A DNA stretch of 64,000 nt, taken from contig OX638340.1 in NCBI GenBank assembly GCA_951812955.1, positions 2,912,001 to 2,976,000 of the forward strand, given 5' to 3'. Origin of the DNA: an uncultured Gemmatimonadota bacterium (GTDB lineage: Bacteria; JAAXHH01). Within the stretch, counting starts at the first letter, position 1, and every line of letters starts with the position of its first letter. Of the stretch, positions 1 through 42,018 are shown one piece after another. The notes under the pieces are model-generated. The model did not search any database. It saw only the letters and a list, made by a program, of their open reading frames with translations, and was not told the origin of the DNA. The position numbers were made by a program, and so were the translations under genes.

Positions 1-96
1 ATGTCACCTCGCGACCTTTCCCGGAGATGACGCTGGGCTTCTCAGCGATCTTCTAGCTACTCCCTTCGTCCACATGACTATCTGAATCTAAAGCAA

Positions 97-1548
97 ATGG
101 ATCACCATATGAACAGAGCGGCCTCGGCGCTGATTATCGCCGGCGGCGCGGGCGTGCGCCTTCAAACGGTAACCGGCCAGGTTCCCAAACCCTTGATGAA
201 GCTTTGCGGCGTGCCACTGATCAAGCGGATCATTTTGACAGCGGCCAGGGCCGGCATTTCGCGTTTCGTGATCGTAACGGGGTACCAGGCGGACCTCTTT
301 CACGAGGTCCTTTCGGACGATCCCGGCCTGGACGGCTGCCGGATCGAGTGGGTGCATAACGAGCGGTGGCACCTGCCCAACGGGGTTTCCGCCCTGGCCG
401 CCCGTTCCCGCCTGGCGGAACCGTTCGCGCTGCTCATGGCGGATCACCTCTTCGAGCAAAGTACGTTGGAGCGTCTGCTCGAGGAACCGGTCGCCGATGG
501 GGAATGTCTGCTCGCCGTCGACCGGAAAATCGATAGCGTGTACGACCTGGACGACGCCACCAAGGTCGAGGTGCGCGGGGACGAAGTTGTTCGCATCGAT
601 AAAGCGCTGCAGGAGTTCAATGCGGTAGACACGGGCATGTTCCTTTGTACGCCGGCACTGTTCGATGCCCTCGATGCCGTGGACGGACCGGAGGGGTGCG
701 CGTTGAGCGACGGCGTCCGGGCGCTGGCGGAAGACGGGAGGATACACGCCTTCGACGTCGGCGATGGATTCTGGCAGGACGTGGATACGCCCGAAATGCT
801 GGCGCACGGCGAAAAGAACCTCCTGGAGCGCCTAGTAAAGCCCACGGATGGCTGGATCGCCCGGTACTTGAACCGGCCGGTTTCGACCCGTCTCAGCCGA
901 TGGCTGGTCCGGACGCCGATCACCCCCAACATGGTGACCCTGGTCACCTTCCTGACCGGCCTGGCCGGAGCGTGGTTCGTGATGGGCGGCACGTACTGGA
1001 CGGTACTTCTTGGCGCCTTTCTTTTCCAGGTTTCGTCCATCCTCGATGGATGCGACGGGGAGGTGGCGGTCCTGACCTTCCGCGAGTCGAAATACGGTTC
1101 ATGGCTCGACACGATCACGGACAACCTGACCTACCTGGCGTTTTTCTCCGCCGTTGTCTGGGCCTATGCGGGCGGTTCCGACGTAACGGCAATCCGGTAC
1201 CTCGGCCTGGTATCCGTCGCCGTGGTGACCGCGTCGATTCTCGCGATGTACTACTACCTGATGCAGACCGGGGGAAGCGGAAGTCTCGTAAGGTTCAACC
1301 GCGCCTTCGAAAGACACGCCGTCGGGCGGCGCCGCAACCTCTCCGCCAGGCTGCTCAATCTGTTTCGGATGATGTGCAAAAGGGATTTCTTTACCTTGTT
1401 GTTGCTGGTTTTTGCCGCAATCGGACTCCTGAACTGGATGTTCTGGACCGTAACGGCCGGCGGCCTGGCCATGGGTCTGGCCATATTCATTTCGACGGGG
1501 CGGCTGTTGGCGCGGGACCGGGCGGTTGAGCAGATGGAGCGCTCATGA
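97..1548 (+). CDS. Bifunctional nucleotidyltransferase / CDP-alcohol phosphatidyltransferase (same fusion order as IPCT-DIPPS enzymes)
   Basis: The N-terminus has the sugar/alcohol-phosphate nucleotidyltransferase signature IIAGGAGVRLQTVTGQVPKPLMKL. The C-terminal multi-TM half has the CDP-alcohol transferase motif DGCDGEVAV-x8-GSWLDTITD (DxxDGxxA(R>V)x8Gx3Dx3D). Its stop overlaps the next start (ATGA at 1545-1548). Confidence 0.8.
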   Translation: MDHHMNRAASALIIAGGAGVRLQTVTGQVPKPLMKLCGVPLIKRIILTAARAGISRFVIVTGYQADLFHEVLSDDPGLDGCRIEWVHNERWHLPNGVSALAARSRLAEPFALLMADHLFEQSTLERLLEEPVADGECLLAVDRKIDSVYDLDDATKVEVRGDEVVRIDKALQEFNAVDTGMFLCTPALFDALDAVDGPEGCALSDGVRALAEDGRIHAFDVGDGFWQDVDTPEMLAHGEKNLLERLVKPTDGWIARYLNRPVSTRLSRWLVRTPITPNMVTLVTFLTGLAGAWFVMGGTYWTVLLGAFLFQVSSILDGCDGEVAVLTFRESKYGSWLDTITDNLTYLAFFSAVVWAYAGGSDVTAIRYLGLVSVAVVTASILAMYYYLMQTGGSGSLVRFNRAFERHAVGRRRNLSARLLNLFRMMCKRDFFTLLLLVFAAIGLLNWMFWTVTAGGLAMGLAIFISTGRLLARDRAVEQMERS

Positions 1549-2318
1549 GCGGATTACTGTACCATGTACGGGGACTTTTTACCCTCCGGATCAGGAAGGA
1601 TCTCAACTTCCGCAGGGTCCAGGAAACGGTCCCGGCGCTGCGCTGGCTGAAGCCGCGCAGGGGCGAGCGGATTCTCGATATAGGCTGCGGAGAAGGGACC
1701 TATGATTACCGGGTCGCCATGCGAGGCGCCGAGGTATTCGGTTTAGATTTGAACCGGCACCAATTGCGGCGTGCCGCGTCCTATCACAAGACCCCTTCGA
1801 CGGGATTCTTCTGTGCCGATGCGGGCGCGTTCCCCGTTCGCTCGGGACAGTTCGACACGGTCATGAGCCTGTGCGTCTTCGAGCACCTGCCGGACGACCG
1901 ACAGACGCTGAGGGAGATGTGGCGCGTATTGCGGCCCGGGGGACGCATCCTGTTGACGCTGGACAGTCTGAGCCTCGGGGGGATCGGCGAGGCGTGGCGC
2001 GACGAGCACCGGGAACGTCACAGCGTCCTTCAATTCTATTCGCATCCGTCGGTCGGCTCGTTGCTGGAGGCGTGTGGGTTCAGACTGATAAGACACCGCT
2101 ACCTGCTTCGTTCGAAGCTGGACCTGGCGCTGATCCGGTTGAGCTATGCTACCGAGCGCATGCACGCGATCCCGGCGGCGCTGGTCCGATTGGGGCTGGT
2201 ATCGATCGGCCGGGCAGTGTCTGCGGTTTTTAACCTGTTCACGAAAAACCACGGGGGATGGACGCTGTTGATCGAAGCAGACAGGAAGACCCCCCGTCCG
2301 GCGAATTCCCCACCATGA
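1545..2318 (+). CDS. Class I SAM-dependent methyltransferase
   Basis: Motif I is ILDIGCGEGTY and the post-I acidic residue is in VFGLDLN. The LRPGGRILLT motif is also present. ATGA overlaps at both ends (1545-1548 and 2315-2318) indicate operon coupling. Confidence 0.8.
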   Translation: MSGLLYHVRGLFTLRIRKDLNFRRVQETVPALRWLKPRRGERILDIGCGEGTYDYRVAMRGAEVFGLDLNRHQLRRAASYHKTPSTGFFCADAGAFPVRSGQFDTVMSLCVFEHLPDDRQTLREMWRVLRPGGRILLTLDSLSLGGIGEAWRDEHRERHSVLQFYSHPSVGSLLEACGFRLIRHRYLLRSKLDLALIRLSYATERMHAIPAALVRLGLVSIGRAVSAVFNLFTKNHGGWTLLIEADRKTPRPANSPP

Positions 2319-3868
2319 AGCGTACCCTTGAGCAAACGGTTCCGGACCGGTCCGACACCGACGCATCGGCGATCGCCCGGGGCGCGGCCGTCAATTTCAT
2401 CGGAACGGTGGCGCGGCTTACCAAGTCCGTGTCGTTCATCGTCCTTACGCGGCTGTTCGGCGCCGAGATTTTCGGCCTGTACATGCTCGGATGGACCATC
2501 GTGGATCTCGTGGGAAAGGTGGCCCAGTTCTCGTTGGACAAGGGCTTGATCAATTTCATCCCGCGTATGCGCGAGGACGGGAAGAAGGACGCCATCCACC
2601 GAATCATCGCGCAGGCCCTGGGCGTGGGCCTGCTGCTGAGCGTTGGGGTCGGCGCCGCGCTATATGTCGGCGCGCCCGCGCTGGCCGAAGGGCTGCTCGA
2701 AAAGCCACGGCTCACCGGCATGCTGCGGTTGTTGGCGATCGGACTGCCGCTAATCGCCCTGACCCACATCATTTTGGGCGTCACCCGGGCTCACAAAGTC
2801 ATGAAGTACGACGCCATGGTCCGGGGCGCGGTCGAGCCGCTGGTGCTATTCGGGGCGGCCTGCGCCTTGTTCTACTGGGGCTGGCGCACCTACGGCATCG
2901 CCGCGGCCCACCTGGCCGCGCTGACCGGCGGCCTGCTGTTCGCCGTTTACGTGTTCACCAGGTTCTATTCCTGGCGTGCCTGTCTCGTCCACCTGCGCGA
3001 ACTGCGTTTCGTCACTCCGCTGACCCGATTCTCGCTGCCGGTAATGGGCTATGAACTGGTCTACATGGCCATGATACGTCTTGACGTGCTCATGGTCGGC
3101 TACTTCCTGCCGGCGGCGCAGGTGGGCATCTACGTGATCGCGGTCGAAATCGCCTTGCTGACCAAGAAGGTCCGCCAGTGGTTCGACCCGATTTTCAGTC
3201 CCATCGTCGCCGAACTGAATCACCGCAACGACCTGCCGCGGCTGGAGCGCAACCTCAGGCTGGTCACCCGGTGGGTCCTGACCATCGGCGTGGGGTTCCT
3301 CTGCGTCATAGCACTGATCGGCAATGAATTGCTGGGGCTGTTCGGTCCGGCATTCGTCACCGGGTTCATGGCGATGGTCGTCCTGGCCATGAGCCAGGTC
3401 GTATATGCCGCCATGGGTTCTGGCGATACCGTGCTCATCATGTCGGGCCGGCCCTATCTGAATCTCATCAACACGGTCGTGGTCGTAGCAGTGAATTTCG
3501 CCCTGAACCTGTGGCTGATACCATCCCTGGGCATCCTGGGCGCCGCCCTGGGAACGCTGGTATCCTTCGGCCTGCTGACACTAACGCGCCTGGTCGAGGT
3601 ATACCACCTGTTCCGGATCCATCCCCTGGACTGGCGCATTTTGAAGCCCTGCGCCGCAGCGGTCGTCGCCTTCGCATGCGCGTACATGGCGGGGGCCTAC
3701 GCGCCTGATGCCCCGTGGTTGCGCATGGCCGCGCTGCCTCTGATTTTCCTGGCCCCCTATCTCGGTGTGCTGTTCCTGATGGGTTTGGAAGAGGATGACC
3801 GGATCGTGCTCCGGCGCCTGCGGGGGCGGTGGGCACGAAGACGTGGGCACCGAGCTTCAGCGCCATGA
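2315..3868 (+). CDS. MOP-superfamily (Wzx-like) polysaccharide/lipid flippase
   Basis: The protein is highly hydrophobic with many predicted TM segments. Its N-terminal pattern (AARGAAVNFIGTVARLTKSVSFIVLTRLFGAEIFGLY) is typical of polysaccharide-biosynthesis flippases. I chose the start at the ATG overlapping the upstream stop, not the track start at 2258. Confidence 0.7.
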   Translation: MKRTLEQTVPDRSDTDASAIARGAAVNFIGTVARLTKSVSFIVLTRLFGAEIFGLYMLGWTIVDLVGKVAQFSLDKGLINFIPRMREDGKKDAIHRIIAQALGVGLLLSVGVGAALYVGAPALAEGLLEKPRLTGMLRLLAIGLPLIALTHIILGVTRAHKVMKYDAMVRGAVEPLVLFGAACALFYWGWRTYGIAAAHLAALTGGLLFAVYVFTRFYSWRACLVHLRELRFVTPLTRFSLPVMGYELVYMAMIRLDVLMVGYFLPAAQVGIYVIAVEIALLTKKVRQWFDPIFSPIVAELNHRNDLPRLERNLRLVTRWVLTIGVGFLCVIALIGNELLGLFGPAFVTGFMAMVVLAMSQVVYAAMGSGDTVLIMSGRPYLNLINTVVVVAVNFALNLWLIPSLGILGAALGTLVSFGLLTLTRLVEVYHLFRIHPLDWRILKPCAAAVVAFACAYMAGAYAPDAPWLRMAALPLIFLAPYLGVLFLMGLEEDDRIVLRRLRGRWARRRGHRASAP

Positions 3869-3940
3869 CGTTAGTGGTCCGGCGCCTGCGGGGCCTGTGC
3901 GGCCCGCCGCCTCTACCCGGTAAGAGGCCAAGCGCAAGCC

Positions 3941-5284
3941 GTGGGATGGAGGGGAGCGCGTACTTGGGACATCTGTCGACGGGGAGACTTGGTTATTTTG
4001 AATTACAGCGTGGTATTGTTCGCCGATACGGATGACATCACAGCCGGCGCCGGTCGATCGGTTTACGGCATTTCTCTGTTGGAACGGCACCTTCGGGTCT
4101 TTGCTTCCCTGGGGGCCCGGCGGGTAACCGTGGTCGGACCTGCACCCGGCCGGGGTTCGAAGGTCCGAGTCGACGGATTCGACGAACGCTGGTTCGCTGA
4201 GCTGCGCGCCGTCGACTGCGTGGGGGCCGAAGAAAGCCCTGCCCGCTGGCTGCCCGGGAAGGACGAAGTGGCCCTGGTGCTGGACGCCCACCACCTGTAT
4301 GACCCGCGTGTCCTGCGGGCCATGGTCGAAGGCGGCCCGAACCGTAAAGCCGCGGACTCGGCAGTCAGGGAATCCTGCAGGCTGCTGGTGGCCGACGCAG
4401 ACCTGCTCGCAAGCCTCACAGCGTGCTGGAACGGCTCCGAATCACTATGGTCATCGCTGGACTCGGCGCGGGAATCGACCTGCCCGGTATTCGATCTCCG
4501 CGAAATGGACCCCTATATCGTGGATCTGCGCCGAAGCCTGCCCCCCTGGTGGGTGGTCCTGGGTTCGGACCGGAAAGCGCGCCGGGCGGAGGCGCTTCTG
4601 ATCAATGCCGCACAGAAGGGAACGCTGGATTTTCCGGCGGAATTCATACATCCACCCCTGGAGAACCTGCTTACAAAGTGGATCTCGGCCGGAACCGTGA
4701 CGCCTAACCAGGTAACCACCCTCACCATATTGCTGGCCTTCCTGACCACCGGCCTGCTGGCCGTGGGGCAATCGGGCCCGGGTTACACGGCCGCCGGACT
4801 GATCATCGCCTTCATCGTCGGAGTACTGGACGGGGTCGACGGCAAGTTGGCCCGTGTTACGGTGCGATGCACGCGGTTCGGGGACCGATTTGAACACATC
4901 CTGGACGTGATCTGGGAGCTGACCTGGTACTGGGCCCTGGGGTGGATGCTCGGCGGCAGTGGCGATGTGGCGGGGCCTTTCGTGCTCGCTTCGGTAATCA
5001 CGCTCTTTTATCTGCTTGACAAGACGGCCACGGGGATGTTCAAGTCACGGCAGGGAATCGAACTGTTTGACTACGAGCCCATGGATCGCTTTTTTCGCCG
5101 TATCGGCGCCCGGCGCAACACGAACGTCCTGCTGCTGCTGGGTGGTACGGCGGCAGGTATGCTGGAGGAAGCGTTTACATGCGTGGCCATCTGGACGGTG
5201 ATTACGGCGGCGTTTCACTGGACGCGGGCGATCTGGGTGCTGTCGAAGCCGACATCGGCCGGCGATGTGAAACGGCTTCCTTAA
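3941..5284 (+). CDS. CDP-alcohol phosphatidyltransferase with a divergent N-terminal nucleotidyltransferase-like domain
   Basis: The C-terminal membrane domain has DGVDGKLARVTVRCTRFGDRFEHILD, i.e. DxxDGxxARx8G with the third Asp replaced by Glu. The roughly 220-aa N-terminal region resembles the partner gene's NTase domain but lacks the GxGxRL/PK signature. The true start is uncertain; alternative TTG codons lie at 3989 and 3998. Confidence 0.7.
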   Translation: MGWRGARTWDICRRGDLVILNYSVVLFADTDDITAGAGRSVYGISLLERHLRVFASLGARRVTVVGPAPGRGSKVRVDGFDERWFAELRAVDCVGAEESPARWLPGKDEVALVLDAHHLYDPRVLRAMVEGGPNRKAADSAVRESCRLLVADADLLASLTACWNGSESLWSSLDSARESTCPVFDLREMDPYIVDLRRSLPPWWVVLGSDRKARRAEALLINAAQKGTLDFPAEFIHPPLENLLTKWISAGTVTPNQVTTLTILLAFLTTGLLAVGQSGPGYTAAGLIIAFIVGVLDGVDGKLARVTVRCTRFGDRFEHILDVIWELTWYWALGWMLGGSGDVAGPFVLASVITLFYLLDKTATGMFKSRQGIELFDYEPMDRFFRRIGARRNTNVLLLLGGTAAGMLEEAFTCVAIWTVITAAFHWTRAIWVLSKPTSAGDVKRLP

Positions 5285-5426
5285 CGCCAGCCACGATTTC
5301 TCCCGGGCATGGGCCGGCCCATGCCCGTTAATTTGGATCAAAAAGTGGAATTGTGCGTCTAATATGCTTGATAATGAGCGAGTCGGCCATGGCTGTGCGT
5401 CGACGCTTGTGCTAAGCGGAGGCATC

Positions 5427-6803
5427 GTGTTTCGTTTCCTGGTCCACATCCTGGCGGTATCTCTGATCACGGGGCCGGCGGTCGCACAGGGATCGGACCG
5501 TCCCGTACAGGCCGTCCAATCCGTCCGGATGACGCTGGAGCAGTGCGTGGACAGGGCGTTGACGGTCAGTCCTGATATCGAGCAGGCGGCCCTTGCCGTC
5601 GAAGGCCTGGAAGCCAGGTTGAGCGAAGCGAAATTTGCGGGCATCGCACCCCGGTTGCAGTGGACCAACATCTTCGGTCCGGCGCCCGGCATAAAAGGCG
5701 ATACAGAACGGGTCGAGACCATCCGGAGCGACCTGTCCGACCTGGGCGTTTTTTCCCGCACGCAGATCGAATTGGTCCAGCCGCTGTATACCTTCGGGAA
5801 GCTCAGCAATGCGAAGAAGGCGGCCGGATACGGTCTCGAGGCGGGCGAGGCCGCCGTGGAATCCAGGAAGCACGACGTGGCCTTCCAGGTTAAGAAACTG
5901 TTCTACGGACTCGTGTTGGCCCGTGAACTCAGGGAAATCATTCTGGAAAGCGAAGAAAGCGTACGTGAAGCCCGGGAGCGCGTCAACGAGATGATCGAGG
6001 AGGATTCGGAAGATGTCGGCCAGAACGACCTGTTGAAAATCGATGTCTTCGAGTATGAAGTGCAACAGAGCCGGGCGCGGGCCGAGAAGTCGATCGAAAT
6101 AGGGAAGGCGGCGCTGAAATCGGTGCTTGAAATCGATCGCTCCAGCGATTTCGATATCGTCGACACGACCGCGGAACCCAGTACGGCAGACCTCGACGGA
6201 CTGGAATTCTACATCGAACAGGCGAAGAACCGGCGGTACGACATCCGGCAGCTCAGGGCCGGCGTGCTGGCCCGCCGCGCGCTGCTGAAGGTAGCCCGGA
6301 GCGACTACTACCCCCAGATCGCCCTTGCGGGGTCCATCCAGTGGGGTATCGCGCCCCACCGGCCGGAACTCGACAATCCGTTCCTCAGGGACGAGTTCAA
6401 TTTCCTGCGGGGGGGCGCGGTGATTACCTTGCGGCAGAACTTCAATTTCGGCCTGACCCGCGCGAAGTACCAGGCCAGGAAAGTGGAGCTGGAAGCGCTG
6501 GTGACCAGGGAATCACAGGCGATGAACGCGATCGAACTGCAGGTGGAATCGACCTACCGGGACGTGATCGAGGCCCGTACCAACGTCGTCAACAGCGACC
6601 GGGCGCTTCGCTCCGCCAGGGCATGGCTGACATCGGCAAAGCTGGGCTTCGACATCACGGGAGACAGTTCGGAATTGCTGGACGCCTTCACCGCGCACGC
6701 GAAAATGCAACATGCACACCGGCAGTCGCTTTTCCAGTACCGGGTTTCGCTGGCCGAACTCGATCACGTAACCGGTAACGGGATTTCAAATGTGCGGCGC
6801 TGA
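5427..6803 (+). CDS. TolC-family outer-membrane efflux protein
   Basis: There is a signal peptide (FLVHILAVSLITGPAVAQ). The TolC-type opening LTLEQCVDRALTVSPDIEQA and repeated coiled-coil halves are present. I chose the GTG start 5 nt after a GGAGG; the track ORF begins at 5364. Confidence 0.8.
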   Translation: MFRFLVHILAVSLITGPAVAQGSDRPVQAVQSVRMTLEQCVDRALTVSPDIEQAALAVEGLEARLSEAKFAGIAPRLQWTNIFGPAPGIKGDTERVETIRSDLSDLGVFSRTQIELVQPLYTFGKLSNAKKAAGYGLEAGEAAVESRKHDVAFQVKKLFYGLVLARELREIILESEESVREARERVNEMIEEDSEDVGQNDLLKIDVFEYEVQQSRARAEKSIEIGKAALKSVLEIDRSSDFDIVDTTAEPSTADLDGLEFYIEQAKNRRYDIRQLRAGVLARRALLKVARSDYYPQIALAGSIQWGIAPHRPELDNPFLRDEFNFLRGGAVITLRQNFNFGLTRAKYQARKVELEALVTRESQAMNAIELQVESTYRDVIEARTNVVNSDRALRSARAWLTSAKLGFDITGDSSELLDAFTAHAKMQHAHRQSLFQYRVSLAELDHVTGNGISNVRR

Positions 6804-6824
6804 CACACGGAACGGAGGATGGTC

Positions 6825-7655
6825 ATGAAGAATCGACGTGCGGGGGCGGGCAGGACGCTCAGTCTGGTGGCTGGCACCGTCCTGTTGCTCATTGCCACGT
6901 TCATCGATCCGTCTTCCGTCCTTCGCACGGACTCAGCGGATAAAGGAACGCCGCCCCGATTTTCCGTGCTGGGGATCGACTCTTTTGTTCCGGCAGCCGC
7001 GCGGGCGGATCATCCTCAACGCCGCGATGATCGTCGTGCGTCCGTCCTCATCGATGGCTTCGACAGTTCGGCCCCGGGCAGCTTCCCCCTGACCTGGAAG
7101 GCCTGGCGGGGAGACGATGACCTGGCTCGAAAAACGTATACGATCCGGGAGGAAAACGGAAACCGGTATCTCCACGCCGCCGACGACGGCTCATCCATCA
7201 TCATTCGCAAGCAGCTTAGCGAATGGGATGCGAACGAATACCCGGTGCTGTCATGGCGCTGGAGGGCGAAGGTCCTGCCCGAAGACGGAGATGAACGCAT
7301 CGGTTCCAGGAACGACAGTTCAGTGGCCGTGTACGTGGTCCTGGATCAGAACTTCATCGGCGTGCCCAAAACCCTGAAGTACGTCTGGAGTACCACCCTG
7401 CCGGTCGGCACCCATCACCGCCGCGACGGTATTGGCCGTCCCCACGTGATCGTGCTCGAAAGCGGTACGGAGAAGCTCGGGGAATGGGTCAAGGAGTCGG
7501 TCGACGTGTATGCGGACTATGTCCGGATCTTCGGGAAAAAGCCGCCCCGGAAAGCCGTAGGGATCGGTATTCTTACGGATGGCAACGCGACGGGAACGGA
7601 CTCGAAGGGGGATTACGACGACTTCATGGTTCATCGCCGGAACACCGGGTCCTGA
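6825..7655 (+). CDS. DUF3047-like secreted protein
   Basis: An N-terminal TM/signal segment is present. The pattern PVLSWRWRAKVLP...NDSSVAVYVVLD...LKYVWSTTLPVG...ILTDGNATG matches my recollection of the DUF3047 family. Confidence 0.6.
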   Translation: MKNRRAGAGRTLSLVAGTVLLLIATFIDPSSVLRTDSADKGTPPRFSVLGIDSFVPAAARADHPQRRDDRRASVLIDGFDSSAPGSFPLTWKAWRGDDDLARKTYTIREENGNRYLHAADDGSSIIIRKQLSEWDANEYPVLSWRWRAKVLPEDGDERIGSRNDSSVAVYVVLDQNFIGVPKTLKYVWSTTLPVGTHHRRDGIGRPHVIVLESGTEKLGEWVKESVDVYADYVRIFGKKPPRKAVGIGILTDGNATGTDSKGDYDDFMVHRRNTGS

Positions 7656-7690
7656 CCCGTCAATTCCGGCCGGAAGGTAGGAGGAAGAAA

Positions 7691-8290
7691 ATGCATGCTA
7701 TTTGCCGCGCACTCCGCCCCTTGGGACCACTTGTCGCCTGGGCGGCGGTGTCGTTGATCGCTTTCGGGAGTAACGCGCAGGAATACTCGCCCATCGAGAC
7801 CCTGAAACAGCGGGACGCCGCGTTACTCGGCCTGGATGGAGCCACCACCGAAGCGGCACGGGACAGTCTCGTGCGCCGGGCCGTCGTCGAGGGGTTCGAT
7901 TTCGTACGACACAGCCGTATCTCGCTCGGCAGGCACTGGCGGGAGAGGACGGACGCGGAACAAGAAGAATTCGTTTCGGTCCTGCGTAAGTGGACGGAAA
8001 ACCGGGCCCTCGACAAGTTGCGCAAGCGGTCGGACAGGACGACTTATGACGGAGAGGAGACCCGGGGCAGCAGGTCGCTGGTGAGAACCACGGTATGGTA
8101 CAAGGGTACCAAAACACTCGTCGACTACAAGATGGAGTTGCAGGAAGGGCACTGGCTCATTTACGACATGGTCATCGACGGGGCGAGCGTCGCGCTGGCC
8201 AACCGGGACGCATTCTACAAGAAGATCAGCAGGACCTCCTACGACGAATTGCTCGATACCCTACTCGCAAAAACCCTTGAAATAGAGTAG
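7691..8290 (+). CDS. MlaC/Ttg2D-like periplasmic phospholipid-binding protein
   Basis: There is a signal peptide (LVAWAAVSLIAFGSNAQ). The family-like block is LGRHWRERTDAEQEEFVSVL...WLIYDMVIDGASVALANRDAFYKKI. An RBS (GGTAGGAGGAAG) precedes the ATG at 7691. Confidence 0.7.
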   Translation: MHAICRALRPLGPLVAWAAVSLIAFGSNAQEYSPIETLKQRDAALLGLDGATTEAARDSLVRRAVVEGFDFVRHSRISLGRHWRERTDAEQEEFVSVLRKWTENRALDKLRKRSDRTTYDGEETRGSRSLVRTTVWYKGTKTLVDYKMELQEGHWLIYDMVIDGASVALANRDAFYKKISRTSYDELLDTLLAKTLEIE

Positions 8291-8370
8291 TATTTCTTGT
8301 ATATTTCCGGGTCTGTGAGATATACTCGTTTCAAGCGGTATATTCATGTCCTAAGTTTTTAGGAGACAGA

Positions 8371-9813
8371 ATGGCGAAGACGGTATACGACCGGTGTATC
8401 TTTTTCCTCGTCGACGGCGCCCGCGAAGACGTCATGCGGGAAATGACCGAGGCGGGCGAACTGCCTGCCCTGCGGCGCTACGTGCTGGACAGGGGAGACT
8501 ACCGAAAGGCGGTGACTTCGTTTCCGTCCACGACCGGTCCGGCCCATGTGCCCTTTCTGACCGGTTGTACGCCCGGTTCGTGCAATCTCCCCGGAATCCG
8601 CTGGTTCGACCGGTCCCAGCCCAATGGTCTCACCCATTTCCGCCAGGCGCGCAGTTACGTGGGTCCGGGAGGCCTGTATATCGACCAGGACCTCAAGGAT
8701 GAAGTCCACACCATCTTCGAGTACTTCGAGCGCCCGGCGGGGGTCTTCAGTTTTGTGAACAGGGGATTGGGCATATTCGAAAACCGGACGCTGCTGACCA
8801 GGGGCTGGTACTGGCTATACGCCCATTACTCCGGCCAGTGGCAGGCCGTGGACGACGCGGCCTGGCGGTACATCGACCGGGCCGTTGACCAGGGCGCCGA
8901 TTTCCTGTCGGTCGTATTCCCCGCGGTGGACGAATACTCGCATTACACCGATCCATTTTCGGACGCCACGTTGAACGCGTACCGGGAATTCGACCGGGGG
9001 CTCGGCAGGTTGGCGGAGCGGCTTCAACGGCAGGACAGACTGGACAGTACGCTTTTCGTGATCTCCAGCGATCATGGCCTGACCTCTACGCACACGCACT
9101 TCGAACTTTGGTCGTTTTTTGACGAATTGGGATTCAACACGCTGTATTATCCCCGGATCCTGCGCAACGGATGCGACGCGGCAACTATGGTCTCGGGCAA
9201 CGGCATGGCGCATATCTACCTCAAGAAAGGCGACTCCTGGGAAGAAAGGCCTTCCTACGAGGAGATCCGCACGCTGGGGGAAACGGACCCGATCGAAGCC
9301 CTGCTGGGGCAGGAGGCGATCGACCTTGTGGCGGCGGTCCAGGATGACTCGGTCATCGTCTGCGGGCGCCGGGGGATCAGTGAAATTAGGGAGACGCCCG
9401 AAGGCATCGCGTACCGGGTTATTGAGGGCCAGGATCCGTTCGGCTATGGAGGCATCCCGGCTGAAGCGTCCGATGAGCAATTGCTCTCCGCCACGTTCGA
9501 CACGGACTATCCCGACGCGCCTTACCAATTGCTGCGTGTCCTCGGTTCTCCGCGGTCGGGCGATTTGATCGTCAGTGCGCGAAAAGGCTACGATCTGAGA
9601 TACCGGTACGAGCATCCTGAGCACAAGTCGACCCATGGTTCACTGCATCGCGACCATATGCACGTTCCCTTGATGATGAATACGGAGATTGCGGCGGACC
9701 ACGTGCGCACCGTGGACCTCTTCCCCGCCATGCTGAACCTGACGGGGCGTTTGGTCGAAGGAACTATTGACGGCAGAGATTCTGTCACCGCCGCTTCGCG
9801 TGCGGTGGCGTAG
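8371..9813 (+). CDS. Alkaline-phosphatase-superfamily enzyme (type I phosphodiesterase/nucleotide pyrophosphatase-like)
   Basis: The N-terminal metal/nucleophile region is FFLVDGAREDV ... FPSTTGPAHVPFLTG. Later blocks SSDHGLT and HGSLHRDHMHVP are present. An RBS (AGGAGA) lies upstream. Confidence 0.75.
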   Translation: MAKTVYDRCIFFLVDGAREDVMREMTEAGELPALRRYVLDRGDYRKAVTSFPSTTGPAHVPFLTGCTPGSCNLPGIRWFDRSQPNGLTHFRQARSYVGPGGLYIDQDLKDEVHTIFEYFERPAGVFSFVNRGLGIFENRTLLTRGWYWLYAHYSGQWQAVDDAAWRYIDRAVDQGADFLSVVFPAVDEYSHYTDPFSDATLNAYREFDRGLGRLAERLQRQDRLDSTLFVISSDHGLTSTHTHFELWSFFDELGFNTLYYPRILRNGCDAATMVSGNGMAHIYLKKGDSWEERPSYEEIRTLGETDPIEALLGQEAIDLVAAVQDDSVIVCGRRGISEIRETPEGIAYRVIEGQDPFGYGGIPAEASDEQLLSATFDTDYPDAPYQLLRVLGSPRSGDLIVSARKGYDLRYRYEHPEHKSTHGSLHRDHMHVPLMMNTEIAADHVRTVDLFPAMLNLTGRLVEGTIDGRDSVTAASRAVA

Positions 9814-9822
9814 GAGTAATCC

Positions 9823-10914
9823 ATGTCCGAGCAGGTCCAGATTGCCCCGGCGCCGGAACCTGTCCCGCCGTCTCCCGCGCTGCCCGTACTGCAACCGGAC
9901 TCGGGCTATCTCGGGTACGACCGGGCGCTGTTGCGGCCCATGTCCCTCGGCACTAAGCTCCGAGCCTTGTTCAAGTACCTCTGGGTACGATTGAAGGGCG
10001 GACCGATGGCGGTGAACATGGAGGTGACCTATCTGTGCAACGCCACCTGCGATTTCTGTGATTACTGGAAGACGAAACGTTCAGGCAAGCTGGGCGATTA
10101 CGACTACATGGAGGCGCTCAGGAAGCTGAACCCCCTGACGGTCACGCTGACCGGCGGGGAACCCATGATCAACAAGCGACTGCCCGAGGCGGTCAGACGC
10201 ATCAAGGATGGCCTGGGATTCGTTTATATCGGCATGGTCACCCACGGATCTCTGCTGACCGTAGAAAAGGCCATGGCCCTGTGGGATGCCGGCGTGGACC
10301 ACATTTCGATCTCGTTGAACTATATCGGCCGCGAACATGACGAGGAACGGGGTATCGCGGGTTTGTACGAGCATATCTCCACGCTCGTTCCCCAGCTGAC
10401 GGCCCGAGGGGTCAACGTGATCTTCAACACGGTGATCATGCGTGAGAACCTGGACCACGTCGTACCCATCGCGCACCTGGCGCGTTCTATGGGCGCGAAG
10501 GTTTCCTACAGTTGCTACAGCGACTACAAGAATGGGAACGAAACCCACCTTGTGGATCCCGGTCACGAGGAGCAGTTGGAATCCGTGATCGAGGATCTGA
10601 TCTACCAGAAATCCCGATTGGGAAACATCGTCAATTCCGCCTGGTACTTGCGCCGGATCCCCGATTACTTCCAGGATGCGCTTCCAAGGTCCTGCACGGC
10701 AGCGGGCAAGTGGCTGGTGCAACTGACTCCCGACGGCAACGTAAAACCCTGTGCGGAACTGCCCGTAATGTCCGGGTATGCCGATTTCAAGCGGGTTTCA
10801 ACGAAGATCGACTGCAACCGGTGCTGGTACAGTTGCCGGGGTGAGACCGAATCTTCGTTGAAGCTTGTAAGGGTGCTGGAAGGCCTGGGCAGGGCCTGGC
10901 GCAGTAGCGCTTAA
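9823..10914 (+). CDS. Radical SAM enzyme with C-terminal Cys-rich (SPASM/twitch-like) region
   Basis: The CxxxCxxC cluster motif is CNATCDFCDYW, followed by the GGEP motif (LTGGEPMI). The C-terminal cysteines are C..(17)..PC and CNRCWYSC. Confidence 0.8.
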   Translation: MSEQVQIAPAPEPVPPSPALPVLQPDSGYLGYDRALLRPMSLGTKLRALFKYLWVRLKGGPMAVNMEVTYLCNATCDFCDYWKTKRSGKLGDYDYMEALRKLNPLTVTLTGGEPMINKRLPEAVRRIKDGLGFVYIGMVTHGSLLTVEKAMALWDAGVDHISISLNYIGREHDEERGIAGLYEHISTLVPQLTARGVNVIFNTVIMRENLDHVVPIAHLARSMGAKVSYSCYSDYKNGNETHLVDPGHEEQLESVIEDLIYQKSRLGNIVNSAWYLRRIPDYFQDALPRSCTAAGKWLVQLTPDGNVKPCAELPVMSGYADFKRVSTKIDCNRCWYSCRGETESSLKLVRVLEGLGRAWRSSA

Positions 10915-16613: not shown

Positions 16614-16844
16614 GGGAATCAAGCCGGATTCAGCGGGTCGTTGGATCAGGGCGAACGGCGGCGGCACAGCAAGCGAAAGATGCTATACGGGTGTTTAGAA
16701 ATCAAGGTATTTTCAAGGTGGACCGTGAATGGCGGAAAAGACGCTTGTTCTATGCCGTTACCGGAGTTAACGTGGTGTCGGCCGGTCCATCAGAATGCGG
16801 CGCGCCGGCCCGCCGCAGCCGATGTCGGAAACGGGACGATCATC

Positions 16845-17570
16845 ATGTCGAACGACTGGTATATCGAATACTTCGACGAAGACTACTACCATTTCGACCA
16901 CCACGAGGATACGGATCTCGAAGTGGACGGACTCGCGCGCCTGTTGGACCGCCGCGAGAGGAAAAGGATACTGGACATTGGCTGCGGCTACGGACGGGTC
17001 AGCACACCGTTGCGGAAACGCGGCTATCGGGTCGTGGGCTACGACCTGTCCCCCGCCCTGCTGAAACGGGCCCGTGAAGGGGATCCCGGGGGAATCTGGG
17101 TCAGGGGAGACATGCGTGAACTGCCCTTTGCCGGAGCATTCGACACGGCCATCAGCCTGTTTAATGCCTTCGGGTACTTCGAAGAAGAAGAAGAAAACTT
17201 CAGGGTCCTGAAGTCTGTTTCGGAGGCATTGCACCCCGGCGGGCTGTTCGTATGCCAACTCGTCAACCGGGACTACCTTGTCCGCCGGTTCGCCGCCCAG
17301 GAAGTCCACCGCCGGGGAGACCTGGTCATACTGGAAGAGCGCGATTTCGATGCGATCGCGAACAGGGTGCTAACCAGGACGACCGTGATCAGTGGCGCGG
17401 ACAGACGGGAGTACGCGTCTTCCATCCGTGTCTACACCGTGACCGAGCTGGACCTGCTCCTGGCCGCTGCCGGCATGACGATACGGGAAGTCCACGGCGG
17501 ACTCGATTTCAGACCCTACGACTGGGATACGAACCAGTTGGTCATCATCGCCGAAAGAACCGATCGGTAG
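16845..17570 (+). CDS. Class I SAM-dependent methyltransferase
   Basis: The motifs ILDIGCGYGRVSTPL and VVGYDLS and the block LHPGGLFV are present. I chose the start at MSNDWYIEYF. The upstream part of the track ORF (from 16572) overlaps the uvrA 5' end and looks non-coding. Confidence 0.75.
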   Translation: MSNDWYIEYFDEDYYHFDHHEDTDLEVDGLARLLDRRERKRILDIGCGYGRVSTPLRKRGYRVVGYDLSPALLKRAREGDPGGIWVRGDMRELPFAGAFDTAISLFNAFGYFEEEEENFRVLKSVSEALHPGGLFVCQLVNRDYLVRRFAAQEVHRRGDLVILEERDFDAIANRVLTRTTVISGADRREYASSIRVYTVTELDLLLAAAGMTIREVHGGLDFRPYDWDTNQLVIIAERTDR

Positions 17571-17680
17571 AGGATCCCGGGTGGCTCCGGTTTCCAATAA
17601 GCTTGACAAGACCCTGGTCCAATCTTAGGATTCAATGTCATTTCATTCTGTCTGAATACGGGAAAAACAAAGGATTCTAC

Positions 17681-19981: not shown

Positions 19982-20051
19982 TGCCATGGATATGGATCCT
20001 TCCGTGTCTTGAAGCGCACGGAGGTCTATGGTCCGTGAAAGGTGGGATGTC

Positions 20052-41958: not shown

Positions 41959-42018
41959 GATTACCTCTCCCGGTACCGGGTGTTCTACGCACTCAACATG
42001 CGCATCGGAGAATTTGAC

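What the first reader, a model, noticed from the sequence alone, without database searches (positions are those of the whole stretch)
97..10914. Nine-gene cluster combining CDP-alcohol head-group chemistry with a flippase and envelope lipid-trafficking proteins
Seen in sequence: nine co-directional genes, with ATGA start/stop overlaps linking the first three. The genes are:
- an NTase/CDP-alcohol transferase fusion;
- a SAM methyltransferase;
- a MOP flippase;
- a second CDP-alcohol transferase fusion;
- a TolC-like outer-membrane protein;
- a DUF3047-like secreted protein;
- an MlaC-like periplasmic lipid carrier;
- an alkaline-phosphatase-superfamily phospho(di)esterase or transferase;
- a radical SAM enzyme.

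Established knowledge:
- NTase plus CDP-alcohol transferase fusions make CDP-activated polyols and transfer them, as in di-myo-inositol phosphate synthesis and an alternative CDP-inositol route to inositol lipids.
- MOP proteins flip lipid-linked intermediates.
- MlaC shuttles phospholipids across the periplasm.

Inference: the cluster may form a complete pathway. It would activate an alcohol phosphate, attach and methylate it on a lipid or polyol acceptor, flip it, and deliver or modify it in the outer envelope. That implies an uncharacterised phospho-headgroup lipid or phosphodiester-linked envelope polymer. The substrate cannot be read from the sequence.
Basis: inference. Interest (0 to 1): 0.65.

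Follow-up and report, generated by a model that had tools for sequence, protein, structure and literature searches.

The report
Inositol-type envelope lipid synthesis and export cluster
Nine co-directional genes in a Gemmatimonadota-like genome look like one conserved, uncharacterised unit that activates an inositol-type phosphate, attaches it to a membrane acceptor with two paralogous transferases, flips the product and passes it to outer-membrane carriers.

Summary
All nine genes, their domain assignments and both ATGA overlaps are present.

- **Synteny:** it holds at 63-96% identity. The core recurs in other arrangements in at least six phyla.
- **Transferase clade:** the enzymes are not PgsA/PssA. 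They form a separate "long" clade of IPCT/DIPPS-like proteins.
- **Flippase:** the MOP flippase travels with them and has no glycosyltransferases beside it.

Refinements:
- g4 is a full-length paralogue of g1 with a degenerate nucleotidyltransferase domain. One relative fuses g1 and g4.
- Both transferases lack the Arg/Lys that binds the phosphate of an inositol-phosphate acceptor. They are therefore probably not di-inositol-phosphate synthases and probably use an unphosphorylated, likely lipid, acceptor.
- DUF3047 has a lectin-like beta-sandwich fold and occurs fused to MlaC.
- Inositol is inferred from family-level linkage to inositol-phosphate synthase. No such gene lies in the window or within 10 kb upstream in close relatives.
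- Relatives carry an 11-gene version with two extra genes.

The product, the acceptor, and the roles of the methyltransferase, the phosphodiesterase and the radical SAM enzyme remain unknown.

The parts
3..56 (+). 3' end of a BlaR1-like sensor gene (Peptidase_M56), the second gene of a BlaI/BlaR1-like pair directly upstream of g1
   Evidence: The translation VTSRPFPEMTLGFSAIF* matches the C-terminus of the Peptidase_M56 gene upstream of g1 in L001, L002 and L003. The gap to g1 is 40 nt, on the same strand.
97..1548 (+). g1: bifunctional IPCT-like nucleotidyltransferase plus CDP-alcohol phosphotransferase. It is the proposed CDP-inositol synthase and first phospho-alcohol transferase.
   Evidence: Pfam NTP_transferase/NTP_transf_3 plus CDP-OH_P_transf. 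PDB 4mnd IPCT/DIPPS E 4e-48 over both domains. NF041135 scores 237 bits, below the 580 cut-off. The motif is DGCDGEVAV-x8-G-x3-D-x3-D followed by N343. It belongs to the long clade.
1545..2318 (+). g2: class I SAM-dependent methyltransferase, substrate unknown
   Evidence: Methyltransf_11 scores 78 bits. The nearest NCBIfam family, DVU_1556, scores 78 bits, below the 155 cut-off. It shares ATGA overlaps with g1 and g3. It is also present in L003, L012, L013 and L095-L100.
2315..3868 (+). g3: MOP-superfamily flippase (Polysacc_synt)
   Evidence: PF01943 scores 68.7 bits and PF13440 scores 62.9 bits. About 12-14 hydrophobic segments are predicted. No NCBIfam equivalog is reached. It co-occurs with g1 or g4 across phyla.
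3941..5284 (+). g4: paralogue of g1 with a degenerate nucleotidyltransferase domain and an intact CDP-alcohol phosphotransferase domain. It is the proposed second phospho-alcohol transferase. The true start may be about 19 codons downstream.
   Evidence: PF01066 scores 38.4 bits. The motif is DGVDGKLAR-x8-G-x3-E-x3-D followed by V. hhalign against the g1 family gives probability 99.6%, E 7e-25, over 363 columns. The N-domain against the g1 NTase gives probability 80%, E 1.5e-5, and the GxGxRL and PKPL motifs are lost. A g1-g4 fusion ORF of 937 aa occurs in L013.
5304..5327 (+). G+C-rich hairpin between g4 and g5. It may be a terminator or attenuator separating a synthesis half from an export half.
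   Evidence: The stem has 10 bp, 8 of them G-C. The 79-nt spacer folds at -30.9 kcal/mol with z -2.96. The hairpin is identical in L001 and degenerate in L002; a block downstream of it is conserved.
5364..6803 (+). g5: TolC-like outer-membrane factor (OEP)
   Evidence: PF02321 scores 135.7 bits with two repeats. An N-terminal hydrophobic signal is predicted. TIGR01844 scores 50.6 bits, below the 225 cut-off. An OEP gene lies next to g1-like genes in L005, L014-L026, L033, L047, L035 and L105.
6819..7655 (+). g6: DUF3047 protein with an N-terminal signal or anchor, a disordered linker and a lectin-like beta-sandwich. It is the proposed periplasmic head-group-binding partner of MlaC.
7691..8290 (+). 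g7: MlaC-family periplasmic lipid-binding protein
   Evidence: PF05494 scores 98 bits. HpnM TIGR03481 scores 54 bits, below the 160 cut-off. A signal-like N-terminus is predicted. In relatives it lies next to an HpnN-like MMPL.
8371..9813 (+). g8: cytoplasmic NPP-type phosphodiesterase or phosphatase of the alkaline-phosphatase superfamily
   Evidence: PF01663 scores 102.5 bits over residues 10-424. No signal peptide or TM segment is predicted. By my reading, the catalytic residues are present: D14, the Thr nucleophile in FPSTTGPAH, DEYSH, SDHG and HG. PDB matches are weak, to NPP and ENPP7.
9823..10914 (+). g9: radical SAM enzyme with a twitch/SPASM-like C-terminal cysteine cluster

Best explanation
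The nine genes are one conserved unit, probably preceded by a BlaI/BlaR1-like regulator pair. The unit makes an envelope lipid with a CDP-activated, inositol-type phosphate head group and moves it to the outer membrane.

**Proposed steps**
1. The N-terminal domain of g1 converts an inositol phosphate and CTP into CDP-inositol (inferred from homology).
2. The membrane domain of g1 and its paralogue g4 each transfer the phospho-alcohol to a hydroxyl of an unphosphorylated acceptor. g4 has lost its own nucleotidyltransferase motifs and depends on g1's product.
   - The acceptor is most likely a membrane lipid alcohol, and then a position on the growing head group.
   - This is inferred from the missing phosphate-binding Arg/Lys, the g1-g4 fusion and the lipid-transport neighbours.
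3. The g2 methyltransferase, the g9 radical SAM enzyme (fold nearest to a sugar-modifying twitch enzyme) and the g8 cytoplasmic NPP-type phosphodiesterase/phosphatase tailor or trim the head group. Their order and chemistry are unknown.
4. The g3 MOP flippase moves the polar lipid to the periplasmic leaflet.
5. The g7 MlaC-like carrier, working with the g6 lectin-like DUF3047 protein, carries the lipid across the periplasm to the g5 TolC-like outer-membrane protein.

**Shown here**
- The domain identities.
- The g1/g4 paralogy.
- The intact catalytic motifs.
- The clade separation.
- The synteny.
- The two gene fusions.
- The predicted folds.

**Inferred**
- The substrate, the acceptor, the order of steps and the destination.
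For: **Architecture and homology**
- g1 aligns with A. fulgidus IPCT/DIPPS over both domains (E 4e-48).

**A distinct clade**
- The tree of 88 g1-like proteins splits into a long clade (about 480-497 aa, with a conserved C-terminal KRDFF region) and canonical IPCT/DIPPS (about 440-460 aa).
- 24 of the 49 canonical genes lie next to MIPS, and none lies next to an envelope gene.
- 27 of the 38 long-clade genes lie next to OEP, MlaC, MMPL or DUF3047. Counting MOP and LPG_synthase_TM as well, the figure is 33 of 38.

**Same donor chemistry, different acceptor**
- 45 of the 49 canonically invariant positions in the nucleotidyltransferase domain are kept in the long clade.
- Only 23 of 34 are kept in the membrane domain.
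- The residue after the fourth motif Asp is Arg in 49 of 49 canonical proteins and in the PIP-synthase-like gene of L007.
- The same residue is never Arg or Lys in the 38 long-clade proteins (33 have Asn) or in the 27 g4-family proteins.
- In M. tuberculosis PgsA1 this residue (R94) is critical for binding inositol phosphate and is conserved in enzymes that use that substrate (PMC6506517).

**g1 and g4 work together**
- hhalign gives probability 99.6%.
- The nucleotidyltransferase domain of g4 is degenerate.
- A single 937-aa g1-g4 ORF occurs in Latescibacterota L013.

**Link to inositol**
- MIPS, a PIP-synthase-like gene, a g1-like gene and an MMPL lie together in Nitrospirota L007 and L008.
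- 14 of the 21 soil g4-like loci with at least 8 kb of upstream sequence carry MIPS.
- L169 confirms PF01658.

**Link to export**
- Relatives pair g1 with an HpnN/BstA-like MMPL (321 and 217 bits), MlaC and OEP.
- Cytophagia L033 carries OEP, MlaC, g1, rSAM, g4, MOP, MMPL and DUF3047, all on one strand.
- L105 has the same set in a different order.
- MlaC-DUF3047 fusion proteins exist.
- DUF3047 has a carbohydrate-binding-module-like fold.

**Precedent**
- Rhodothermus marinus uses CDP-inositol, made by an IPCT, with a membrane transferase (BEPIS) to make an ether inositol phospholipid. This is Jorge et al. 2015, as described in PMC4587543 and PMC9246714.
Against: - No inositol-phosphate synthase lies in the 64-kb window or within 10 kb upstream in close relatives. 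The alcohol is therefore inferred only from homology and from more distant loci.
- No gene for making the lipid acceptor is in the cluster.
- No inner-membrane extractor (MMPL or MlaFEDB) is in the cluster, although most distant relatives have an MMPL.
- MOP proteins usually flip polyprenyl-linked glycans, not phospholipids.
- The missing Arg is a negative signature taken from a related enzyme, not a demonstrated specificity determinant for this clade.
- The R. marinus BEPIS sequence could not be obtained for comparison.
- The g9-type radical SAM family is broad. Its distant members are not always next to g1-like genes: L092 and L094 have none.
- Synteny counts include many related genomes and are not independent events.
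- Nothing here is experimental.
Confidence: 0.55

Rival explanations
1. **Carrier-lipid route.** The transferases load phospho-inositol (or another phospho-polyol) onto a polyprenol-type carrier and the MOP flippase flips it. The group is then transferred in the periplasm onto LPS, a capsule or another envelope glycan, as undecaprenyl-phosphate-Ara4N is used by ArnT. Alternatively it is polymerised into a teichoic-acid-like phosphodiester polymer.
For: - MOP (Polysacc_synt) proteins typically flip polyprenyl-linked units (established knowledge of the family; g3 assignment).
- The 11-gene relatives (L003, L098, L100) and the soil loci add a roughly 500-aa membrane protein, x521.
- The soil homologue of x521 matches PMT_2, a GT-C fold glycosyltransferase family.
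- L169 also carries GT9 and GT2 enzymes and an OEP-OEP-HlyD-MacB exporter next to MIPS, a g4-like gene and MOP.
Against: - The window cluster has no GT-C protein, ligase, polymerase or glycosyltransferase.
- Its periplasmic partners are a MlaC-family lipid carrier and, in relatives, HpnN-like lipid exporters. These fit transport of a finished lipid.
- The x521 protein of L003 has no Pfam hit of its own.
Confidence: 0.2
2. **Same machinery, different alcohol.** The activated head group is not myo-inositol phosphate. It is another polyol or amino-alcohol phosphate, for example a modified cyclitol produced with help from the radical SAM enzyme and the methyltransferase, or glycerol or choline phosphate.
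For: - No MIPS lies in the window or in the 10-kb flanks of close relatives.
- g1 scores far below the IPCT/DIPPS equivalog cut-off.
- Some database sources name homologues "choline kinase/phosphatidylglycerophosphate synthase".
- The radical SAM enzyme's nearest fold is a sugar-modifying enzyme.
Against: - 45 of the 49 positions that are invariant in MIPS-linked IPCT domains are kept in the long clade.
- The best structural relatives of the N-domain are inositol-1-phosphate cytidylyltransferases (4mnd, 2xme, 4jd0).
- Long-clade g1 in Nitrospirota, and two thirds of well-flanked g4-like soil loci, sit beside MIPS.
Confidence: 0.15
3. **Two unrelated modules.** A head-group synthesis module (g1-g4) and a generic efflux or lipid-maintenance module (g5-g9) are adjacent only by descent within this lineage.
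For: - A strong hairpin and a 79-nt gap separate g4 from g5.
- Minimal versions elsewhere contain only g1 plus rSAM, or g1 plus MOP.
Against: - OEP, MlaC, DUF3047 or MMPL lie next to g1-like genes, in different gene orders, in Gemmatimonadota, Latescibacterota, Cytophagia, KSB1, Methylomirabilota, Thermodesulfobacteriota and Nitrospirota.
- They are absent from all 49 canonical IPCT/DIPPS neighbourhoods.
Confidence: 0.05
4. **Ordinary compatible-solute synthesis.** g1 is a standard IPCT/DIPPS that makes the compatible solute di-myo-inositol phosphate, and g8 is the final phosphatase.
For: - The best named hits of g1 are IPCT/DIPPS.
- A phosphatase-type enzyme is present in the cluster.
Against: - g1 lies outside the canonical clade.
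- It lacks the Arg after the fourth Asp, and the motif Arg, both invariant in the 49 canonical enzymes.
- MIPS is not adjacent.
- A second transferase, a flippase and periplasmic and outer-membrane proteins have no role in solute synthesis.
Confidence: 0.03

Closest known systems
IPCT/DIPPS of hyperthermophiles (A. fulgidus AF0263, PDB 4mnd; NCBIfam NF041135), which makes di-myo-inositol phosphate
   Same: - It has the same two-domain architecture: a cytidylyltransferase fused to a CDP-alcohol phosphotransferase.
- It is alignable over both domains (E 4e-48).
- The four metal-binding Asp residues are conserved.
- 45 of 49 invariant nucleotidyltransferase positions are conserved.
   Different: - g1 lies in a separate clade with a C-terminal extension of about 40 aa.
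- It scores 237 bits against a cut-off of 580.
- The motif Arg is Val. The Arg after the fourth Asp is Asn, and two further canonical invariant charged residues are changed.
- It is not next to MIPS, and it sits among envelope genes.
CDP-inositol-dependent ether inositol-phospholipid synthesis in Rhodothermus marinus (IPCT + BEPIS; Jorge et al. 2015, as described in PMC4587543 and PMC9246714), and the putative "alternative" NTP-transferase / CDP-alcohol transferase cluster of Bacteroides vulgatus and Prevotella
   Same: - An IPCT-type enzyme supplies CDP-inositol.
- A membrane CDP-alcohol phosphotransferase places phospho-inositol on a lipid alcohol rather than on inositol phosphate.
- An MprF-type (LPG_synthase_TM) gene is a neighbour both in the Bacteroides clusters and in deltaproteobacterial g1 loci.
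   Different: - The known systems sit in an operon with MIPS. They have one transferase and no flippase, OEP, MlaC, DUF3047, radical SAM, methyltransferase or NPP enzyme.
Hopanoid and sterol outer-membrane trafficking (HpnN/HpnM; BstA/B/C) and the Mla pathway
   Same: - It uses a MlaC-family periplasmic carrier.
- In relatives this carrier is paired with an HpnN/BstA-like MMPL transporter, encoded beside the genes that make a specialised lipid.
   Different: - g7 is below the HpnM cut-off (54 bits against 160).
- The window has no MMPL or MlaFEDB genes.
- A TolC-like OEP and DUF3047 are present instead.
- No hopanoid or sterol genes are present.
Mycobacterial PI/PIM/LAM pathway
   Same: In both, an inositol phospholipid would be built on the cytoplasmic face and flipped. 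In the 11-gene and soil relatives it could then be handled by a GT-C-type membrane enzyme in the periplasm.
   Different: - Mycobacteria use CDP-diacylglycerol plus inositol phosphate (PgsA1, with the Arg present) rather than CDP-inositol.
- The flippase and the carriers are not homologous to known mycobacterial components.
- The window cluster has no mannosyltransferases.

Membership tests
Bifunctional IPCT/DIPPS (di-myo-inositol phosphate synthase) | N-terminal cytidylyltransferase fused to a CDP-alcohol phosphotransferase membrane domain | tested here: met
   Pfam finds both domains in g1. The alignment to 4mnd covers residues 10-378.
Bifunctional IPCT/DIPPS (di-myo-inositol phosphate synthase) | Score above the curated equivalog cut-off (NF041135, 580 bits) | tested here: not met
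   g1 scores 237.3 bits and g4 scores 50.8 bits.
Bifunctional IPCT/DIPPS (di-myo-inositol phosphate synthase) | Arg/Lys immediately after the fourth motif Asp, which binds the phosphate of the inositol-phosphate acceptor | tested here: not met
   The residue is N343 in g1 and V in g4. None of the 38 long-clade proteins or the 27 g4-family proteins has R or K, against 49 of 49 canonical proteins with R. The role of this residue is described in PMC6506517.
Bifunctional IPCT/DIPPS (di-myo-inositol phosphate synthase) | Genomic linkage to myo-inositol-1-phosphate synthase | tested here: not met
   No MIPS lies in the window or in the 10 kb upstream in L001 and L002. 24 of the 49 canonical genes are next to MIPS.
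CDP-alcohol phosphotransferase family (PF01066) | Signature D-x2-D-G-x2-A-R-x8-G-x3-D-x3-D and a Pfam score above the gathering threshold | tested here: met
   g1 scores 30.3 bits and g4 scores 38.4 bits, both above the threshold of 22. All four acidic positions are present: D/D/D/D in g1, and D/D/E/D in g4 (D in L032 and L033). The motif Arg is Val in g1 and is variable across its clade.
CDP-inositol:lipid-alcohol phosphoinositol transferase (BEPIS-type pathway) | Orthology to the characterised R. marinus enzyme, and demonstrated transfer from CDP-inositol to a lipid alcohol | not testable with these tools
   The reference sequence and paper are not held.
CDP-inositol:lipid-alcohol phosphoinositol transferase (BEPIS-type pathway) | A functional inositol-1-phosphate cytidylyltransferase partner | tested here: inconclusive
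   45 of 49 canonical invariant positions in the nucleotidyltransferase domain are retained, and the best PDB relatives are IPCTs. Substrate specificity has not been shown.
MlaC family / Mla pathway | MlaC fold family membership | tested here: met
   PF05494 scores 98.2 bits, above the threshold of 26.
MlaC family / Mla pathway | Partner MlaFEDB inner-membrane complex encoded alongside | tested here: not met
   None of the nine cluster genes is MlaD, MlaE, MlaF or MlaB-like. The rest of the genome was not searched.
HpnM/HpnN hopanoid transport | HpnM and HpnN equivalog scores | tested here: not met
   g7 scores 54 bits against TIGR03481, below the 160 cut-off. No MMPL is in the window. The MMPLs of relatives score 270-321 bits, below the 752 cut-off.
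MOP flippase superfamily (Polysacc_synt) | Pfam membership and a multi-spanning topology | tested here: met
   PF01943 scores 68.7 bits, above the threshold of 28.2. About 12-14 hydrophobic segments are predicted.
Wzx O-unit flippase within an O-antigen or EPS locus | Wzx-type family score and adjacent glycosyltransferases or a polymerase | tested here: not met
   NF041503 scores 21 bits, below the 300 cut-off. No glycosyltransferase is in the cluster.
TolC-type outer-membrane factor | Two OEP repeats and a signal sequence | tested here: met
   PF02321 scores 135.7 bits with two repeats. An N-terminal hydrophobic segment is predicted. The TolC subfamily TIGR01844 scores 50.6 bits, below its 225 cut-off.
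NPP-type alkaline-phosphatase-superfamily hydrolase | PF01663 membership with the metal ligands and the Thr nucleophile | tested here: met
   PF01663 scores 102.5 bits. D14, T54/T55 in FPSTTGPAH, DEYSH, SDHG and HG are read directly from the translation. Assigning these as the catalytic residues rests on my knowledge of NPP motifs.
Radical SAM, twitch/SPASM class | A CX3CX2C cluster plus C-terminal auxiliary-cluster cysteines | tested here: met

The most novel reading that the evidence does not exclude
The cluster may represent an unrecognised, multi-phylum class of bacterial outer-membrane inositol (glyco)phospholipid.

- A pair of CDP-inositol-dependent transferases, one catalytic twice over and one with a dead nucleotidyltransferase domain, would build a head group with two phospho-inositol or phospho-cyclitol units.
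- That head group would be methylated and modified by the radical SAM enzyme.
- It would be flipped by a MOP protein acting on a phospholipid rather than on a polyprenyl glycan.
- It would be carried to a TolC-like protein by a new two-part carrier: MlaC for the tails and the lectin-like DUF3047 for the head group.

In function this would be a Gram-negative counterpart of mycobacterial PIM/LAM or of eukaryotic GIPC/GPI lipids.
Probability: 0.25. Interest if true: 0.8.

Novelty: new variant of a known kind. Interest (0 to 1): 0.6.

Why it matters
- Inositol lipids are regarded as rare in bacteria, and the CDP-inositol route has been shown in a single organism.
- This clade of g1-like enzymes and the g4 family are widespread. 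They occur in largely uncultured phyla (Gemmatimonadota, Latescibacterota, KSB1, Methylomirabilota, Nitrospirota, some Bacteroidota) and in soil metagenomes, always beside flippases and lipid-export proteins.
- If the prediction holds, it would define three things:
  - a new envelope lipid class;
  - the first functional context for DUF3047, as a partner of MlaC;
  - a case of a MOP flippase and a TolC-like protein serving lipid delivery.
- It would also offer candidate genes for unassigned phospho-hexose or inositol polar lipids seen in environmental lipidomics.

Tried and rejected
- **Exact-sequence look-up of g1.** It found nothing, so relatives were used instead.
- **Literature.** Searches for this gene combination, for DUF3047 function and for Gemmatimonadota inositol lipids found nothing relevant. 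The Jorge et al. 2015 paper is not held.
- **Hopanoid link.** It was considered because of the HpnM, HpnN and HpnH hits. It was rejected because all scores are far below the cut-offs and no hopanoid genes are nearby.
- **DUF3047 as an LptA-like lipid bridge.** It was rejected because the fold is a lectin or carbohydrate-binding-module-type beta-sandwich.
- **Radical SAM as an obligate partner of g1.** It was rejected because distant family members occur without g1.
- **Promoter and terminator scan of the cluster.** Hits were no more frequent than in shuffled sequence.
- **Rest of the window.** It holds no MIPS, MMPL or lipid-synthesis genes.
- **Horizontal transfer.** Base composition gives no sign of a foreign island.

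Full report
**1. Observation**

The window carries nine co-directional ORFs between 97 and 10914.

- g1 is a nucleotidyltransferase fused to a CDP-alcohol phosphotransferase.
- g2 is a class I methyltransferase.
- g3 is a MOP/Polysacc_synt flippase.
- g4 is a CDP-alcohol phosphotransferase behind an unassigned 240-aa N-terminus.
- g5 is an OEP (TolC-like) protein.
- g6 is a DUF3047 protein.
- g7 is an MlaC-family protein.
- g8 is a Phosphodiest/NPP-type alkaline-phosphatase-superfamily enzyme.
- g9 is a radical SAM enzyme.

The ATGA overlaps lie at 1545-1548 and 2315-2318. The real starts of g3 (2315) and g7 (7691) are downstream of the longest-ORF starts, and they agree with gene calls in relatives.

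Simple hydropathy analysis gives the expected locations:
- g1, g3 and g4 are membrane proteins.
- g5, g6 and g7 have an N-terminal signal or anchor.
- g8 and g9 are cytoplasmic.

Base composition is uniform with the surroundings. Homologues carry Gemmatimonadota labels.

**2. Surroundings**

- Window bases 3-56 encode the C-terminus of a BlaR1-like Peptidase_M56 protein. In relatives this gene follows a BlaI-like repressor and directly precedes g1.
- Downstream, a double-length UvrA gene converges on g9.
- The rest of the window is general metabolism. It contains no inositol-phosphate synthase (MIPS), no MMPL transporter and no lipid-synthesis genes.
- A 10-bp G+C-rich hairpin (5304-5327; the spacer folds with z -2.96) separates g4 from g5. 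It may split the cluster into a synthesis half and an export half.

**3. Is the cluster a unit?**

Close relatives keep it:
- Relatives with g1 at 84-96% identity keep all nine genes in order.
- At about 52-63% identity the same set carries two extra genes between g4 and g5 (L003, L004, L098, L100). These are a second radical SAM/SPASM enzyme and a roughly 520-aa membrane protein, x521.

A genome-wide scan shows two clades:
- The scan found more than 576 g1 relatives.
- A tree of the 88 distinct sequences retrieved separates two groups.
- The canonical IPCT/DIPPS group has 49 sequences of about 440-460 aa, from many bacterial and archaeal phyla. 24 lie next to MIPS and none lies next to an envelope gene.
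- The long clade has 38 sequences of about 480-497 aa and contains g1. 27 lie next to OEP, MlaC, an MMPL or DUF3047. Counting MOP and MprF-type LPG_synthase_TM genes as well, the figure is 33.

The arrangements differ between phyla, which argues against simple inheritance of an accidental adjacency:

| Locus | Lineage | Gene order |
|---|---|---|
| L033 | Cytophagia | OEP-MlaC-g1-rSAM-g4-MOP-MMPL-DUF3047, one strand |
| L105 | metagenome contig | g1, MOP, DUF3047, OEP, MlaC, MMPL, g4 |
| L047 | KSB1 | g1-DUF3047-OEP-MlaC |
| L035 | Methylomirabilota | OEP-MlaC-MMPL-MlaC ... g1-rSAM |
| L005, L014-L026 | Latescibacterota / Gemmatimonadota | OEP-g1-MlaC-MMPL |
| L089, L091 | deltaproteobacterial MAGs | LPG_synthase_TM, then g1-rSAM |
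| L090 | unnamed MAG contig | g1-MOP |

The MMPLs are HpnN/BstA-like lipid exporters (321 and 217 bits).

Two natural fusions tie components together:
- A 937-aa g1-g4 ORF occurs in L013.
- MlaC-DUF3047 proteins P0205-P0209 exist.

**4. The two transferases**

- g1 aligns with A. fulgidus IPCT/DIPPS (4mnd) over both domains, but it scores 237 bits against an equivalog cut-off of 580.
- g4 is a full-length paralogue of g1 (hhalign probability 99.6%, E 7e-25).
- The N-terminal domain of g4 is homologous to the g1 nucleotidyltransferase domain (probability 80%) but has lost the GxGxRL and PKPL motifs. g4 therefore probably depends on the CDP-alcohol that g1 makes.
- This N-domain is rare. Only 67 representative clusters match it among 1.84 billion proteins in a single-sequence search.
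- Both proteins keep the four acidic metal ligands of the family motif.

Comparing the clades shows where they differ:
- 45 of 49 canonically invariant nucleotidyltransferase positions are kept.
- Only 23 of 34 membrane-domain positions are kept.
- The changed positions include the motif Arg, which is Val in g1.
- They also include the residue after the fourth Asp. This residue is Arg in 49 of 49 canonical enzymes and in the PIP-synthase-like gene of L007. It is never Arg or Lys in the 38 long-clade proteins or the 27 g4-family proteins.
- In M. tuberculosis PgsA1 that residue (R94) is critical for activity. It contacts the phosphate of inositol phosphate and is conserved in enzymes that use that substrate (PMC6506517).

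My inference is that g1 and g4 do not take inositol phosphate as acceptor. They are not DIPP or PIP synthases, and an uncharged alcohol, most simply a lipid, is the likelier acceptor.

The precedent is Rhodothermus marinus. There an IPCT supplies CDP-inositol to a membrane transferase (BEPIS) that makes an ether inositol phospholipid (Jorge et al. 2015, as summarised in PMC4587543 and PMC9246714).

**5. Which alcohol?**

The evidence for inositol is indirect:
- The nucleotidyltransferase domain is conserved with the MIPS-linked enzymes.
- A long-clade g1 in Nitrospirota lies in the order MIPS, PIP-synthase-like gene, g1, MMPL.
- 14 of the 21 soil g4-like loci with enough upstream sequence carry MIPS.

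One of those soil loci, L169, also encodes:
- an IPCT-like nucleotidyltransferase;
- a small CDP-alcohol transferase;
- MOP;
- a radical SAM enzyme;
- a PMT_2 (GT-C) protein homologous to x521;
- GT9 and GT2 enzymes;
- an OEP-OEP-HlyD-MacB exporter.

Against this, no MIPS lies in the window or within 10 kb upstream in L001 and L002. I could not search the rest of the genome.

**6. Accessory enzymes and carriers**

- **g8** keeps the NPP catalytic residues and has no export signal. It is a cytoplasmic phosphodiesterase or phosphatase acting on an intermediate or on the nucleotide-activated donor.
- **g6** folds as a lectin or carbohydrate-binding-module-like beta-sandwich behind a disordered linker. 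Together with the MlaC fusions, this suggests a division of labour: MlaC holds the acyl or alkyl tails and DUF3047 recognises the polyol head group. This is inference only.

**7. Verdict**

- The best-supported reading is a conserved system for making and exporting an inositol-type phospho-headgroup envelope lipid, built by a paralogous transferase pair (confidence about 0.55).
- The main rival is a carrier-lipid route that decorates or polymerises an envelope glycan (about 0.2). It is suggested by the GT-C protein in the 11-gene and soil versions, but that protein is absent here.
- Every component family is known, and CDP-inositol lipid synthesis has a precedent. I therefore rate this as a new variant of a known kind. 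Interest is moderate to high because the system is widespread, uncharacterised and directly testable.

Noticed in passing
window 3-56 (+); L001 7674-9948, L002 7659-9960, L003 7555-9890: A BlaI-like repressor (Penicillinase_R) and a BlaR1-like sensor protease (Peptidase_M56) lie directly upstream of g1 on the same strand, 40-110 nt away. The pair is conserved from 63% to 96% g1 identity. It may place the cluster under envelope-stress control.
   Followed up: partly
L013 9983-12793 (+): A single uninterrupted 937-aa ORF in a Latescibacterota genome joins a g1-like protein (residues 7-471) to a g4-like protein (residues 527-925). It is followed by a methyltransferase, a radical SAM gene and MOP. 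I did not check whether this is a real fusion or an assembly error.
   Followed up: partly
proteins P0205-P0209 (403-441 aa): Natural fusion proteins carry an N-terminal MlaC-like domain and a C-terminal DUF3047 domain. P0207 has both Pfam domains on record.
   Followed up: partly
L169 1-21170 and about 14 similar soil metagenome loci (L118, L124, L132, L160, L166 and others): Soil contigs place a g4-like gene at about 30% identity beside MIPS, two OEP genes, HlyD, a MacB-type ABC exporter and a radical SAM enzyme. They also carry a PMT_2 (GT-C) protein, GT9, GT2, MOP, an IPCT-like nucleotidyltransferase and a small CDP-alcohol transferase. This looks like a larger, glycosylated relative of the system. 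The source organisms are unknown.
   Followed up: partly
L003 15251-17837; L098 and L100: Relatives at 52-63% identity have an 11-gene version with an extra radical SAM/SPASM gene and a roughly 520-aa membrane protein (x521) between g4 and the OEP gene. x521 has no Pfam hit itself, but it is homologous to PMT_2 proteins in the soil loci. The window lineage lacks both genes.
   Followed up: partly
window 5304-5327 and 5328-5370: A 10-bp G+C-rich hairpin lies in the g4-g5 spacer (fold z -2.96). It is followed by a sequence block conserved in L001 and L002, while the hairpin itself is degenerate in L002. This may be an internal terminator plus promoter.
   Followed up: partly
window 10911-16667 (-): A 1918-aa double-length UvrA (two complete UvrA units; PRK00349 scores 2756 bits with two stretches) converges on g9. 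The two genes overlap by 4 nt at their 3' ends.
   Followed up: no
L089 8857-9834 (-), L091 8853-9872 (-), and L014-L021: An MprF-type LPG_synthase_TM gene (a flippase-like membrane domain) lies next to g1-like genes in deltaproteobacterial and Latescibacterota loci. A homologous neighbour (BT_1521) was noted beside Bacteroides inositol-lipid clusters in PMC9246714.
   Followed up: no
L093 8001-11223 and L094 8001-11896: Distant g9-type radical SAM genes (about 42% identity) sit beside cysS and a short-chain dehydrogenase in two unrelated MAGs, away from any g1-like gene. The family therefore has a wider, unknown role.
   Followed up: no
window 17252-18724, 20028-21140, 41980-43011 (+) and 60590-61642 (-); 27855-28664 (-) and 47988-48911 (+): The window holds four GFO/IDH/MocA oxidoreductases. 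Inositol 2-dehydrogenase is among the top two NCBIfam hits of each (102-135 bits, below the 355 cut-off). There are also two PhyH-family dioxygenases. No link to the cluster was established.
   Followed up: partly
window 28797-35240 (-): A 2147-aa ORF has repeated sensor-domain matches (MctS-like and chemoreceptor-like). It was not examined further.
   Followed up: no
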